Positions 2,053 through 23,420 of a DNA stretch of 64,000 nt are shown piece by piece (within the stretch, counting starts at the first letter, position 1; the number at the start of each line of letters is the position of its first letter). Source of the DNA: the human T2T-CHM13v2.0 reference genome, Homo sapiens; assembly GCF_009914755.1 (NCBI RefSeq), contig NC_060947.1; one strand, 5' to 3'. The notes under the pieces were generated by a model that was not told the origin of the DNA, did no database searches, and saw nothing but the letters and a program-made list of their open reading frames with translations. A program made the position numbers and the translations under genes.

Positions 2053-2559
2053 GTGAATAACACAGCCAATTTGGCTTTAAATGCATCTTGTTATAGATGA
2101 TTTGGCCATTAACCTTGGCAATGTCAATCTGTTCTCACCATCATATTCCATAAAATTAGAATTCTTGATAATAGTTAGAGATGTACTTTGTAAGGATTAA
2201 TGCACTACTGGATTCTGAAAACACAATAGGAGGGAGAGAGATAGAGGAGTGATGGGAGTAGAGGAAGAAAGAACTAAACAAGACAGAAAAAGAACAAGAG
2301 GAACAAATTAAACAAAGAATTAGACATATGAGGATAAGTATATGAAAAAGATGAAAGAATGACACAAACAAGTAGATATATGCTGATAAAAATACCCAAA
2401 ATCTATTAGGGCACAGATTACTGACTGGAATAGTGAGCTTGTAGTACTTCAGAAGACTGAAATCTCTTACATTGCTATAGTCATATAATATAGGACATAT
2501 ATTAAGTTCCTACAGCGCCTGCTAAAACAGTCTACTGAAGGAGCTGTGGGTTAGATGAC

Positions 2560-2860
2560 TTTCTCCTCTGGCCACAGTTGATTGAACCAGGAGCATACAT
2601 CCGTTCCAGAGAGAACCATTCGTATTCTCCATGCTAGGAGTTTGGAATTGGGTTATTGCAATTCCAGTTAATTTCTTTTGTGACTAACACTCAGTAACGG
2701 ACACTGAGAAGATCTAGATTTAGGAACTGAGGTTGTCATTTTGGATCAACCATGCATAGTTAACATGAGAAAATGGGTTTTCAGAGAGAGAGAGAGAGAG
2801 AGAATACTAAAGCAGCCTCACAGAGAGAATTGGAGACAAGCGCTTATATAGTTCCAGAGA
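2560..2860 (+). mobile_element. Ancient ERVL/MaLR LTR fragment (LTR33/MLT1-like) containing (GA)n
   Basis: ctggccacagttgattgaaccagg motif and GA-rich segment typical of these LTRs. Confidence 0.35.
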
Positions 2861-8821: not shown

Positions 8822-9833
8822 GCAAGTTAGGATAAATTATCTTTTAAAGGCTGAGGAATTTCTGTGATGCTAGCCTAATAGGTTTCTTTGAAAAATCGGC
8901 AAATTGATGTACGTCACTTCTCACATACCTAGTTCATATCCTAGGAAATGACCTTGGACAAAAAGTTTATAAATAATTTCTCTTGTTATTATTAGCTATT
9001 CCAACTCATTGCCTCTGGTAACTGCATAATAACATTGCAGCCCCAAAGTTGGTGTGTGTGTGTGTGTGCAGGTACACACTTGCACTTATGAAAGAACTAA
9101 ACTGATCTGCATGAAAGAGGGTACTTATGTTGCTCTCATGATGTTCTAGATTACCCAATACCTTGGGAGTACATTCTTTATAGAATGTATATTATTGGCT
9201 TTTCTCACTAATGTCAGAATCCTGAAAAGTCAACTGACCTAAATGACACATTAAAAATATATATATATTTATATATACTTACTATGTATTTGGAAAATGT
9301 AATAAAATAAATCACCCAAGGCTTCTGATTCAGCAGGCTAATTTTATAAAAATTATTAAATATTATGTTTTCAGTAATAGAATCTCAGATAAACGTAGTC
9401 ATATTTGTTACTGTACAATGATTGTAACAGAAAAGTTTGAAGTTAGATATAACTAATTATCATTTATTCATTAATTTCACAAATTTTTATTGAGCACCTA
9501 GTATATGCTATACCTAAGCTAAGAATATAAAGATCAATAAGACACTGAAGATGATGTTCAAGGGAGTAATTTTAATGTTTTAAATTAAATCATTAAAATG
9601 ATTTTAATGGGCAACACAATCTGCTAGTTCTCTTTTGCTCATTGAATTTGACCTATGCATTATGCAGTACATTTTCGTGCTACTAATGTATAGTACTACA
9701 AAGAAAAATTTTGCTAAGACATGAGCTAGATTTTGTGTTGGCTAGATTGGTTTTCTGTTTGAACTTTCTGTTTATTTGATTTCAGTGAGAAAGTTGATAC
9801 ATCGACAATATTAATGGCATTTTTGAATAACAG

Positions 9834-9873
9834 AAATTCTATAATCCTAATGGAACAGCTATTTTCATCCTGT
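9834..9873 (+). pseudogene. Pseudo-exon upstream of the U12 intron
   Basis: ttttgaataacag| KFYNPNGTAIFIL(+T) |GTATCCTTTT; an alternative acceptor at 9785/9786 gives another open frame. Confidence 0.55.
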
Positions 9874-10865
9874 GTATCCTTTTCTTACCCTTATCCACTT
9901 GGACACACACATTTTTACATAATTGCAATTTGCTGTACATATTGTTCTTTTTTTTTTTTTTGCTTTGCATTTAAAATGGTATAACTCTTAACCATGTTTC
10001 TTGTAAGGTAAAACACTCTGAATGGCTCCATAACAATATAACGTTTAGAGGTTTTATCTGCAAAAGGCCAAACAATAGATTTCACCATTTTTCTCTTAGT
10101 GAATTAATGTTGTTTTACATTTCACAAGTCATTTCCCTGAGGTGGTGTTTCAGCCTTGGGTGTGTATTATTTGGGCTGGTATATTAAAACGTTATGAGTA
10201 TAGGCTTTTCTCAGAATTCAAATGAGCTTAAAGTTCAGTCTGTATAGATGGATTGTTTCATTACCTGAAATAATATTGAGATGGATTGTTTCATTACCTG
10301 AAATAATAATATTCATGTTACAGTATCTCTATTGGACAAACTTGGGGATGGGATTTGCATAGGGATACTCTTCCTTGTTTTTTACTGTAGGATAATTCTC
10401 ACAATTTGAAATACTTTTCACCTTATCTTTTTGTACTTTATAAGGTAGCATTTCCTCATAACTGTGTTTTTGTTCCTGTTGTATAAATTAGATGCTTATC
10501 GTAATTAAGTGAATTGTGTTGAAAGTTAGTCTTTAATTGAAGGGCAATAAATCACACAGTTTCTGAATATTGCAACCATGGGATACAGGGATAATGTTAG
10601 TTACCAACAGTAGTGAATATTGGTCTCTACACTTTTATTTTCTTGTTGATTTTTGATAAAATAAATAACGTTATTAAGCTTCATAGTAATGCAGTTACTC
10701 AATGACTTGTCTCATTTCAATTAACTAGTTTCATTTAAGTGGAATTTATTAGAAAACAGTGAAATCTTCTATACTTGTCAATTCCAAGCTCTTCAACATC
10801 TAAATCACATTGTGTTGAGTTGTTTGCTTAATTTAATTTTTTTTCCTTGAATACCATACTTGGAG
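9874..10865 (+). other. U12-type (minor spliceosome) GT-AG intron, 992 nt
   Basis: 5' site GTATCCTTTT at 9874; branch-site-like TTTTCCTTGAAT at 10841-10852, about 15 nt from the AG at 10864-10865, with no intervening polypyrimidine tract. Confidence 0.65.
10246..10308. repeat. Direct tandem duplication, 30-nt identical unit, period 33
   Basis: agatggattgtttcattacctgaaataata at 10246 and 10279. Confidence 0.95.
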
Positions 10866-11057
10866 CCAACTTTGTAAACTGTCACCTCCCATTCTGCAAA
10901 TGAATATGATAATTACTGTTTTTTTTATGGAAGGATCTTGGATTTTAATGAAAGGATGAATTGCTTCTCTCAGCAATATTCCAGGGATATTAACTTGTAG
11001 AATCCTGATTAAAAATATGTCATAATATGTATTCCTGAGGAACAACGCTTCCTGCAG
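10866..11057 (+). pseudogene. Pseudo-exon downstream of the U12 intron, with stops
   Basis: 192 nt between the U12 acceptor and CAG|gtagaa; frame PTL*TVTSHSANEYDNYCFFYGRILDFNERMNCFSQQYSRDINL*NPD*KYVIICIPEEQRFLQ (3 stops; the 5' part may be frameshifted). Confidence 0.5.
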
Positions 11058-12032
11058 GTAGAACCTTGCAGAGGGTAGAAGAGAACTTTGTATAGCACTG
11101 CACTTGGATCCTCTTATTTATTTTATCAGGGAGGTAGCATAATACACTTTAAAATGGATCTGAACAAATTTAAAAAGGGAGATATTTGGTGCAATTTACT
11201 CCACCTAAACTTATTATGTGTATATGCTGTGTTATTGCCATATGGCCTTTCACACCAAGAAAGCCAACATTAACCCTATGCTCAGAACATCTAAGGAGAG
11301 GTCTTTTTCTTTCCTAGCTAAAATCCTAATTTTGTTTATCTAGGAAGCTGGTACTAAATTTTTGACCAGGTGGAAACTGTTCTCTGATCAAATTAATTTA
11401 CTGCTTTTCTCATTTTTAAAAAACTTGTGAGATTTATTGTTAATTGGACCTTAAGTCTCTTTATCAGTTAAAAAAAACTTGCTTTTTCAGCTGTCTAGAT
11501 TTAAAGTGAAAACGAAAGAAAATAAACAAGAACAGATAAATCATGAGATAGAGAGCTGAATGTACTAAAGGCAAAAGCAAATGGGGAACAGTGGGCAGGT
11601 TATAAATTTGTTTAATTATTATGACATTTATTAATTGTTCCAACGAATAAAATTGACTAGCATATTGGCAATACGAAGTCTGAACTAATGCAAGATTTTT
11701 ATTCGACCCAGGAATGAAGAGTAATTGCCACAGACATATTTTACTTGTGTTTATTAAGGGTCTCTTTGCACACAAGTTGCATGTGGCATGGTAAAATACT
11801 AAATTAAAGGAATATCCCTTCCCTTAGGGACATTCTAATCATCATTCCTCTCCCTCTGAATTGCGTCTAGATAATGACAAAGTGTTAGAATGTATATAGT
11901 GCTCTCTTGACAACAGATTTCTAAGCCAAGTATTGGACTAAACTGTACCATGAATTGAACATGATAAAAAAGTCATACTAATTAAATAAATTCTGAATAA
12001 TCTATGTATCATCAATCATCTATCCGTATATC

Positions 12033-12074
<42 letters not shown>

Positions 12075-12082
12075 ATAGATAT
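12033..12082. repeat. (GATA)n tetranucleotide microsatellite
   Basis: agatagatagat... run. Confidence 0.95.
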
Positions 12083-14165: not shown

Positions 14166-14246
14166 CTTCTCTATTTAACATCAAGATATGTTAAATGATG
14201 GCTCAGCATGTGGAAAGAGAGGTTTCTCAGGAGGATAAGAAGAGGG
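14166..14246 (+). pseudogene. Candidate pseudo-exon
   Basis: Branch-point-like CTGACTAAC at 14130-14138, acceptor ttaacag|, LLYLTSRYVK*WLSMWKERFLRRIRRG, donor GGG|gtatga; phase 0 to 0; one TGA. Confidence 0.3.
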
Positions 14247-14850
14247 GTATGACCAACAAGAGATGGATTCGGTTTTGATGTTTTTGACTATGTTAGTTTC
14301 CTTATATTCGCTTCCAAAAATTCAGCTTCACTTTTTGATATATTTTTGAAAATCCTCTGGTAGGAGGTTTACACACAGATATTTAGCTTGGTCTATGCAG
14401 TGCTTGAATTATGTCTTGGATTTATGTTACAGATAACCTGTGAATAGTTCTGTAGGGAGATGTAGTTGTGAACAAAAACTGTGAGTGCACAGTTCACCAA
14501 GAGCAGCCAAGGATGTTAAAGTCCCTATTGCAGTGGAGATGTTGTGTGCATATGGTAGAAACTTCAGTTTGATGGAAGAAAATATCCAAATTATACAAAC
14601 CATAGAATAAAATACCACATGTGAAGTTTTTATTTTTTTAGAATTTTTCTAAACCACATTTAGAATCATGTGAAACTTGTTCTGGTTCAATAATACTTTG
14701 CAGTGAGTAATCCAGGGACAAACATTTAACTATTGTAAGAAGAATCCATGACCCTAGTCCTGAAAATATTATGGCTGTGAATTTTATAACCTACAGAATG
14801 TAATTCTAATCTCGGCTTTTAAGAGCTTGTGAAAAAGCAGAATTATTTCA

Positions 14851-15140: not shown

Positions 15141-15989
15141 AATCCAGAGCAAAAGTCTGTTGTAATGAAGTAGAACTGTTGTGTTCAGAGGAAGGATTGG
15201 TAGAATCTTGGCTCTTAAGGGGTGCTTGGCATCTTAGTCTCTGGCATTTTCTCTACAGTTGGTTCAGGAAATGCTAATGCATGCTAAGCCATCTCATGTT
15301 GTAGTGCTCTAGATTAGGAAGCGGGCTTTGAGGTTCTTTGAGTTCTTTACAGTTTCCAGGAATAAGAAAGAAAAATGCAGCACTTACTGAATCATGTAAG
15401 ACTTAATATGCAGCATAATACTGGTTCTGTTTTATCTTCAAGTTTCAAAGTCTGAGGCAAGCCTTAACACAGTTCTAACTTTTCAAAGTGTTTTAATTCA
15501 GCAACACTCAGCCCCACAAATGTTAATCAATAGTCCTAGCTATGCCATAAGTAAAGCATGAGACTTAAGAAAAATGACTTGGGTCTCAGTTTCCACATAC
15601 ACACATAGAGTGAAAATAATAATGCCTGCATTCGTGGGACATTTCTGAAGATGAGAGTAGAACATTCAAAAGCTCTTCAAAAAAGTAACTTCATTACACA
15701 AATAATGATGCTGCTAATATCCGGGATCATTATCATCTAAGAGTGTACTTTGCAATTCCAATCCAATAGGTTGAGAAAAAGAATTTTCTTTGAAACGGAG
15801 AATTATAAGAGTAATTATCCAAAAATTATTTATGATTAGCACATAATCTACTAAATAGTGTGCTAGGCACTGGGGATACAGAGCTAATAATAACTTCACT
15901 AATTTTGTAGCCTTGTGTAAATCACGTGCTCTCTCTGAGATTGTTTTCTTATTTATAAACTGCAGCTAATAATTCTTTTCTTAAGAACG

Positions 15990-22551: not shown

Positions 22552-23420
22552 GTAAAAACTTAGGATTGCTATTTCTTGTGGGATTGACCCTTTTATAATT
22601 GTACAATGTTACCCTCTATCTCTGGTAATTTTCTTTGTTCTGAAATCTACTTTACATGATGTTAATGTATCCACATTATTTTATTTTGATTAATGTTTGC
22701 ATTATATAAATTTTTCCATTATTTCACATTAAACTTGACAATATCATCATATTTGAAGTGAATTTCTTGCAGACAGCATATGCAGTAGTTGGGTCATAAT
22801 TTTTAAACCCTTATGTTAATCTTTGTGTTTTAATTGGTATATTCAAACCATTAGCATTTAAAGCAATTATTGATCCATTTATTTTTTGTTTTCAATTTTT
22901 TTTCCTCTTTTTGGCTTCTTCATTTCCTTTTTCCACCTTCTTGTAAGTTTCTATAACTTGTTTTTTTTACAATTTTATTTTAACTTACTTATCCTGTTTC
23001 CACATGAATCATTTTGTGTAATATTTTTAGTGGTTGCTCAAGATAATACATTATGTATACACAACTTTTCAGTCTGTTGGTGTCATAATTTTACCAGTTT
23101 AAATGAAGTGTAGAAACTTCATCTCCATTTACTATTCCCCATTTATAATTCAATAGCCTTAAATATTTTCTGTGTATGTATTTAGAGCCACATCATACAG
23201 TGTTACAATTTCTTCAACATTTCATCATAATTTAGAAAACTCAAAAGAAAAGTCTATTATATTTACTCATTTCCATTTGGTTCTGTATAAATTCTACTTA
23301 TTTGATAAAAATTTCTTGTTTTCATTTAAGGTTATTAATAATTGCTTGTTGAAGCACGCTTACAATGCCTGCTTTAATGTCTTTATCAGATAGCTAACCT
23401 TTCTGTAACCTCAGCGTTGG

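What the first reader, a model, noticed from the sequence alone, without database searches (positions are those of the whole stretch)
9874..10865. U12-type minor-spliceosome intron in apparently gene-free DNA
Seen: GTATCCTTTT immediately after an exon-like segment. 992 nt later, TTTTCCTTGAAT sits about 15 nt upstream of an AG with no pyrimidine tract in between. Established: RTATCCTTT and TTCCTTRAY are the U11 5' splice site and U12 branch-site consensuses; such introns are rare and their positions are conserved within gene families. A correctly spaced pair of both signals supports a real ancestral gene independently of the ORF evidence, and its position can fingerprint the family.
Basis: partly seen in the sequence, partly recalled or inferred. 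Interest (0 to 1): 0.7.

Follow-up and report, generated by a model that had tools for sequence, protein, structure and literature searches.

The report
Likely chance minor-intron look-alike signals
Two short strings in a gene-free stretch of the human X chromosome resemble the signals of rare minor-spliceosome introns, but such pairs are common in shuffled DNA, so they are likely a coincidence, with a smaller chance that they are the worn remains of a dead gene of the testis-expressed ERICH6/C3orf20 family.

Summary
Both motifs are there: GTATCCTTTT at 9874 and TTTTCCTTGAAT at 10841-10852, with AG at 10864-10865. The branch site misses TTCCTTRAY by one base and the acceptor is GAG. The pair is not above chance: 31 of 150 shuffles hold one within 1 kb, 139 of 150 within 5 kb if an A start is allowed. 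It is therefore no independent evidence of a gene.

The family lead is real: ERICH6, ERICH6B, C3orf20 and a fourth locus on chr12 share a phase-2 U12-type intron. The window's flanks resemble that junction weakly: one frame runs across the splice, 14.5 bits against 37-91 for the true introns and 7.3 for the next chance pair. But the junction is 5 nt off and in phase 1, the YPSG start is missing, and the two sides match different subfamilies (same-member test p 0.14). No other exon was found in 104 kb and no homologue in any search.

Verdict: probably chance (0.75); FAM194-family relic 0.15. Cross-species alignments and junction reads would settle it.

The parts
9786..9873 (+). Exon-like segment, 88 nt, after a U2-type acceptor (TTTCAG ending at 9785); one frame has no stop, another carries KFYNPNGTAIF from 9834 behind three stops
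   Evidence: the family exon is 86 nt in ERICH6 and ERICH6B
9874..9883 (+). U11-type 5' splice-site look-alike GTATCCTTTT
   Evidence: 0.9 GTATCCTTT expected per shuffled window, both strands
9892..9936 (+). Segment inside the proposed intron that scores better against the C3orf20-type downstream exon (10.8 bits) than the proposed exon does (7.0 bits); rival placement
10824..10832 (+). Second branch-site-like string TTGCTTAAT (one mismatch); no AG follows at the usual distance
10841..10852 (+). U12 branch-site look-alike TTTTCCTTGAAT, one mismatch to TTCCTTRAY, putative branch A at 10850
10858..10865 (+). Two candidate intron ends in the same frame: AC (10858-10859) and GAG (AG at 10864-10865)
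10866..11057 (+). Proposed downstream exon (to a weak CAG/GTAGAA donor, 192 nt; family exon about 153-156 nt); 10868-10900 weakly resembles the C3orf20-type CQIPTC block; stops in all three frames

Best explanation
The two motifs are likely a chance pair in AT-rich, single-copy intergenic DNA and likely not the ends of an intron that is or was spliced. Shown: the stretch is 32% G+C and single-copy, and pairs of this quality arise in a fifth to over half of shuffled windows. Inferred: the faint FAM194-like words on either side are the best of very many such pairs in the genome, picked after the fact.
For: Pair at chance level. PF14977 over the whole genome: 16 of 16 candidates scored, none on chrX. 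tblastn with 120 and then 147 family proteins: best overlaps with the finding E 1.2 and 1.6. A frameshift- and intron-aware profile alignment recovers ERICH6 302, ERICH6B 238, C3orf20 118 and the broken chr12 locus 56 (their antisense strands 20-26), but gives the window 26 on + and 41 on -. No colinear exon from 20 kb before to 20 kb after the window. When both flanks must match the same family member: 2.0 bits, reached by 14% of 200,000 random pairs; the chr12 locus gets 46.7. 0 of 1080 simulated decays of real family exons gave an upstream score this high with a downstream score this low. Two rival placements of the downstream exon score alike. Junction 5 nt off and phase 1. Three stops in the first 15 codons of the motif-bearing frame. 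About 2 such pairs per 64 kb extrapolate to roughly 100,000 in the genome, so 5-40 would reach the window's family score by chance (inference).
Against: The end of the upstream segment fits the family profile at the donor: corrected p 4.5e-4 of 166,802 positions, a score equal to that of the chr12 locus (10.7 against 10.5). The downstream segment fits the C3orf20-type profile at corrected p 0.011. One frame runs across the splice, and a mixed profile scores it above all or all but one of 20,000 random joins. Among 1072 donor-acceptor pairs from 70 donors in 486 kb, it is the best pair that does not use a real family exon: 14.5 bits against 7.3. The acceptor gives 88 nt against 86; an acceptor this good falls in a given 7-nt slot with probability 0.013. 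The decay simulation used genes whose relatives are in the profile, so it flatters detection.
Confidence: 0.75

Rival explanations
1. Relic of a fifth human FAM194-family gene (ERICH6/ERICH6B/C3orf20 kind) that died long ago. U11 would have read the donor at 9874 and U12 the branch site at 10841-10852, joining the 88-nt exon to an exon starting at 10860 or 10866. All steps are inferred; no splicing is shown.
For: The family has a U12 intron here and has left at least one broken locus in human (chr12). Anchored flank scores, frame continuity across the splice and exon length as listed above. Recalled, not tested: Xq24-26 is paralogous to 13q14 and 3q25, where ERICH6B and ERICH6 lie, so a lost third copy could be expected near here; two paper searches did not document this.
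Against: Wrong phase and 5-nt offset; no YPSG start; the best score needs a mix of subfamilies, and with one subfamily it is 5.7 bits, tied with a chance pair at 22667; the downstream side resembles C3orf20, not the ERICH6 pair that the paralogy argument predicts; no further exons; no homologue for two downstream frames.
Confidence: 0.15
2. A real minor intron of an unannotated non-coding transcript, or of a dead gene of some other family, with the FAM194 likeness incidental.
For: A donor that matches the consensus, with T at -1; MIDB scores similar 12-mers in the 90s (ELOF1 94, WDR41 98; the window's own score was not computed). MIDB counts 15 human lincRNAs and 34 pseudogenes with minor introns. 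A U2 acceptor lies upstream.
Against: No gene in RefSeq (hub note). None of the 41 human chrX rows of MIDB file 8 is 992 nt long or lies between MCTS1 and THOC2. No CpG island in the window. Pfam 0 of 6 frames, PDB 0, Atlas nothing at 0.9, own-genome protein searches only self at E < 1.
Confidence: 0.06
3. A processed or intron-collapsed fragment of a C3orf20-like gene: the downstream exon starts at 9892, and the 'donor' is a remnant or an echo of the Tyr-Pro codons, so that the 992-nt intron does not exist.
For: The C3orf20-type profile scores 10.8 bits at 9892 against 7.0 at 10851; upstream plus downstream with a 0-30 nt gap gives 16.6 bits, the top peak for that model in 327 kb.
Against: Only 1 bit above the next peak; other places reach 16-17.6 bits under others of the 54 model variants, and same-subfamily C3orf20 models score only 5-9 bits here. 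The match stops after about 15 codons.
Confidence: 0.04

Closest known systems
U12-type (minor) GT-AG introns, as listed in MIDB (Olthof et al. 2019, PMC6717393; passages and supplement rows seen)
   Same: Donor RTATCCTTT; branch-like string close to the 3' end; no pyrimidine tract between them; ordinary length.
   Different: Not in an annotated transcript; branch site one mismatch off; 15 nt to the AG against the 11-13 nt optimum; GAG acceptor; pair not above chance.
The U12 intron of the FAM194 family (PF14977): ERICH6 4504 nt, ERICH6B 185 nt, C3orf20 9387-9388 nt
   Same: A P-N-G-T motif like the family's P-D-G-T shortly before the donor; upstream exon 88 against 86 nt; a Cys-x-x-Pro-x-Cys block after the acceptor as in C3orf20; the same ten donor bases as C3orf20.
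   Different: The family junction is phase 2, 23 nt after the P codon, and is followed by YPSG; here phase 1, 28 nt, no YPSG. Family junctions score 65-91 bits, this one 14.5. No other exon is found.
Broken C3orf20 paralogue on chr12 (G000:C12, about 95.29-95.39 Mb, minus strand)
   Same: A human FAM194 locus with an in-frame stop that keeps a U12-type intron at the family position; upstream-exon score like the window's (10.5 against 10.7).
   Different: It keeps YPSG, phase 2, a consensus branch site and several colinear exons, and is found by every method used; the window is found by none of the unanchored ones.

Membership tests
U12-type intron | 5' splice site RTATCCTTT | tested here: met
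   GTATCCTTTT at 9874
U12-type intron | Branch site TTCCTTRAY | tested here: inconclusive
   TTCCTTGAA, one mismatch; 38 sites this good with an AG 9-20 nt on lie in the window, both strands; no PWM score computed
U12-type intron | Branch A about 11-13 nt from a YAG or YAC end | tested here: inconclusive
   15 nt to GAG, 9 nt to TAC; optimum quoted
U12-type intron | Signal pair in excess of chance | tested here: not met
   31, 85 and 139 of 150 shuffles, by pattern and distance
U12-type intron | Spliced from a transcript, dependent on the minor spliceosome | not testable with these tools
   No RNA-seq here; absent from the MIDB chrX rows
U12-type intron | Signals conserved at the orthologous site | not testable with these tools
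   No other vertebrate genome is held (no relatives)
FAM194 family (ERICH6, ERICH6B, C3orf20) | Match to PF14977 or to family proteins | tested here: not met
   (the last three with a stricter first look)
FAM194 family (ERICH6, ERICH6B, C3orf20) | U12 intron in phase 2, 23 nt after the (P)DG codon start | tested here: not met
   28 nt, phase 1 in the motif-bearing frame
FAM194 family (ERICH6, ERICH6B, C3orf20) | Downstream exon opening with YPSG | tested here: not met
   Broad profile p 0.28-0.44 at the acceptor; only the C3orf20-type profile fits, corrected p 0.011
FAM194 family (ERICH6, ERICH6B, C3orf20) | Upstream exon ending in a PDGT-like motif, about 86 nt | tested here: inconclusive
   PNGT motif, corrected p 4.5e-4; 88 nt; three stops in that frame
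FAM194 family (ERICH6, ERICH6B, C3orf20) | Colinear further exons | tested here: not met
   None in the window plus 20 kb on each side
FAM194 family (ERICH6, ERICH6B, C3orf20) | Intact orthologue in another vertebrate | tested here: inconclusive
   Two downstream frames blank (length-limited, exact 5-residue words needed); the upstream exon and the third frame were not searched in that database

The most novel reading that the evidence does not exclude
An unannotated fifth human FAM194 locus: a long-dead X-linked sister of ERICH6, ERICH6B and C3orf20, recognisable now only by its minor-intron signals and the few codons beside them, with both intron ends shifted 5 nt and possibly a GT-AC end. 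Minor-intron motifs would then serve as fossils for genes too decayed for homology searches.
Probability: 0.15. Interest if true: 0.45.

Novelty: not a real feature. Interest (0 to 1): 0.14.

Why it matters
If chance, it is a calibration: a U11/U12 motif pair in AT-rich intergenic DNA carries almost no weight unless transcripts or conservation back it. If the relic reading held, it would add a lost X-linked member to a poorly studied testis-expressed family (testis-biased expression) and show that minor-intron signals can outlast recognisable coding sequence. The by-product, a broken C3orf20 paralogue on chr12 with an AT-AT U12-type intron, is much better supported than the finding itself.

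Tried and rejected
Pfam on six frames of the two segments: 0 families; a Pfam scan of the first half of the window did not run, so the window was scanned only with family profiles built here. Nucleotide alignment of paralogue exons to the window: 7 of 8 within the range of 200 shuffles, C3orf20 downstream exon 38 against a maximum of 36.5. An ERICH6B-like reading of frame 10867, seen by eye: 14% of tiles score as high; rejected. Window 2462-2605, the best tile for the ERICH6B downstream exon (58): at noise with the ERICH6B-type profile and upstream of the donor; rejected, as is a 7-residue match to P0256 at 2599-2670 (not colinear). Candidate further exons at 14166-14359 and 15675-15818: noise. 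A start at 10851 with an upstream branch site (p 3-7e-4 of 3000 before correction) needs two or three frameshifts and leaves no AG; kept only inside the relic reading. Old repeat: sensitive blastn of 9400-11400 against 245 kb gave only 24-63 nt low-complexity matches; no repeat library was on hand, so this is not excluded. Own-genome DNA searches: only self. Atlas, PDB: blank. Paper searches (listings and abstract starts only) showed nothing on this locus or on an X-linked FAM194 gene; two papers on ancestral X genes were not held, and their supplements could bear on synteny. bioRxiv supplements (TOGA2) were not seen. No structure or complex job was run: there is no intact protein.

Full report
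Observation. The donor-like string GTATCCTTTT is at 9874-9883, the only RTATCCTTT on the + strand. TTTTCCTTGAAT is at 10841-10852, its tenth base (A, 10850) lies 15 nt before the AG ending at 10865, and the span is 992 nt. The branch string misses the quoted TTCCTTRAY by one base, the acceptor is GAG, and an AC ends at 10859 in the same frame. A U2-type acceptor ends at 9785, giving an 88-nt upstream segment. The region is 32% G+C and single-copy by DNA search of the whole genome.

Chance. In 150 dinucleotide shuffles made in 2-kb blocks and read on both strands, a GTATCCTTT with an equally good branch site and AG within 1 kb appeared in 31; with either purine first, in 85 (1 kb) and 139 (5 kb). 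The window itself holds 38 such branch sites. The pair therefore gives no independent support for a gene.

The family check. PF14977 (FAM194) finds four loci in this genome, on chr3 (two), chr13 and chr12, and none on chrX among 16 candidates scored. All four have a U12-type intron at one place, in phase 2, just before YPSG, of 4504, 185, 9387 and 2410 nt. The MIDB supplement of Olthof et al. 2019 (PMC6717393; passages and supplement rows read) lists ERICH6 4504, ERICH6B 185 and C3orf20 9388 with the same splice-site strings, which identifies three of the loci. The TOGA2 preprint (10.64898/2026.06.30.735536; passages read) describes the C3orf20 intron as U12 and splitting a Tyr codon. None of MIDB's 41 human chrX rows is 992 nt or lies between MCTS1 and THOC2; that the window lies in that interval rests on recalled gene order.

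Is the window a family member? Unanchored tests say no. tblastn with 120 named and 147 unnamed family proteins gave E 1.2 and 1.6 at best over the finding; HMM scans of six frames listed nothing there. A frameshift- and intron-aware alignment recovered all four true loci (302, 238, 118, 56; antisense 20-26) but gave the window 26 on + and 41 on -; with a lax intron penalty the chain does pick up the motif at 9834, at another model position and still below the antisense score. Block scans with a full-length C3orf20-type profile found no colinear exon from 20 kb before to 20 kb after the window. Searches of the 5.8-billion-protein set with two of the three downstream frames were blank; these need exact words and were length-limited, and the upstream segment and third frame were not searched there.

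Anchored tests give a weak positive, told here in full. The last codons before the donor fit the broad profile (10.7, equal to chr12's 10.5; 3.2e-4 of 127,602 positions; 4.5e-4 after correcting for 12 model variants). The segment at the acceptor fits the C3orf20-type profile (corrected p 0.011) but not the broad or ERICH6B-type ones (p 0.2-0.44). Spliced in silico at either end, one frame continues across the junction for about a dozen codons to a stop, and a mixed profile scores it above all or all but one of 20,000 random joins; single-subfamily models give p 5e-4 to 0.06. Among 1072 donor-acceptor pairs from 70 donors in 486 kb, the four true introns score 37-91 bits, two pairs that borrow a true downstream exon 29-30, this pair 14.5 (AC end), and the next 7.3; restricted to one subfamily it scores 5.7, tied with a pair at 22667. 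The acceptor spacing (88 against 86 nt) has probability 0.013 for a 7-nt slot.

Why this is not enough. The junction lies 28 nt after the P codon and in phase 1, against 23 nt and phase 2 in the family. YPSG is missing, and the motif-bearing frame has three stops in its first 15 codons. Requiring both flanks to match one protein gives 2.0 bits, reached by 14% of 200,000 random pairs (120 proteins; those lacking the upstream exon, including the best downstream match P0136, were left out), against 46.7 for chr12. In 1080 simulated decays of real exons, none combined so good an upstream score with so poor a downstream one, though the profile contains relatives of those genes. The same C3orf20-type profile scores higher at 9892, inside the proposed intron, than at the proposed exon (10.8 against 7.0), and that reading sits only at the top of the noise. 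Finally, about 2 motif pairs per 64 kb imply roughly 100,000 in the genome, so a per-pair p of 5e-5 to 4e-4 leaves 5-40 chance hits for this family alone, fewer than one to about one if the acceptor spacing is also required (inference; this window is AT-rich, so the count is high-side). The prior for one more relic that keeps all its splice signals yet loses every other exon is lower still. The recalled paralogy of Xq24-26 with 13q14 and 3q25 raises it, but predicts an ERICH6-like, not a C3orf20-like, sequence.

Verdict. Most likely (0.75) a chance pair with no splicing role. A FAM194 relic with a shifted U12 intron is not excluded (0.15); a real minor intron of some other unannotated transcript (0.06) and a collapsed or processed fragment (0.04) are less likely. 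It resembles a U12 intron in sequence but fails the tests for membership that could be run; splicing and conservation could not be tested.

Noticed in passing
G000:C12:95,292,062-95,389,000, minus strand (loci L008, L021-L024): Fourth human FAM194 locus, a C3orf20 paralogue about 100 kb long, with a 2410-nt U12-type intron at the family position that starts AT and ends AT and has a consensus branch site, and an in-frame TAG in the exon after next. No 2410- or 2411-nt row in MIDB file 8. Its annotation status was not checked.
   Followed up: partly
L009, L014, L017/L018, L023: In all four family loci the downstream exon begins (C/T)TATCC, echoing the intron's own 5' end (G/A)TATCC; Tyr-Pro codons thus mimic a U11 site.
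   Followed up: no
window 2200-2700 +: Purine-rich stretch followed by the best tile in the window for the ERICH6B downstream exon (score 58) and a 7-residue identity to P0256; at noise with profiles; perhaps an old repeat remnant.
   Followed up: partly
window 14166-14359 +: Exon-like, purine-rich segment with acceptor and donor, 194 nt; no family match.
   Followed up: partly
window 10246-10308 and 12033-12081: 33-nt tandem duplication (1.9 copies, 100% match) inside the proposed intron, and an (AGAT)12 microsatellite.
   Followed up: no
window 100, 4437, 28195, 51939, 62424 (+) and five sites on -: Further RTATCCTY strings; none that paired with a branch site scored above 5.7 bits against the family junction.
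   Followed up: partly
P0123 residues 638-682: An unnamed C3orf20-like predicted protein includes a stretch that matches repeat copies throughout the window; Alu-like by recall, probably a gene-model artefact.
   Followed up: no
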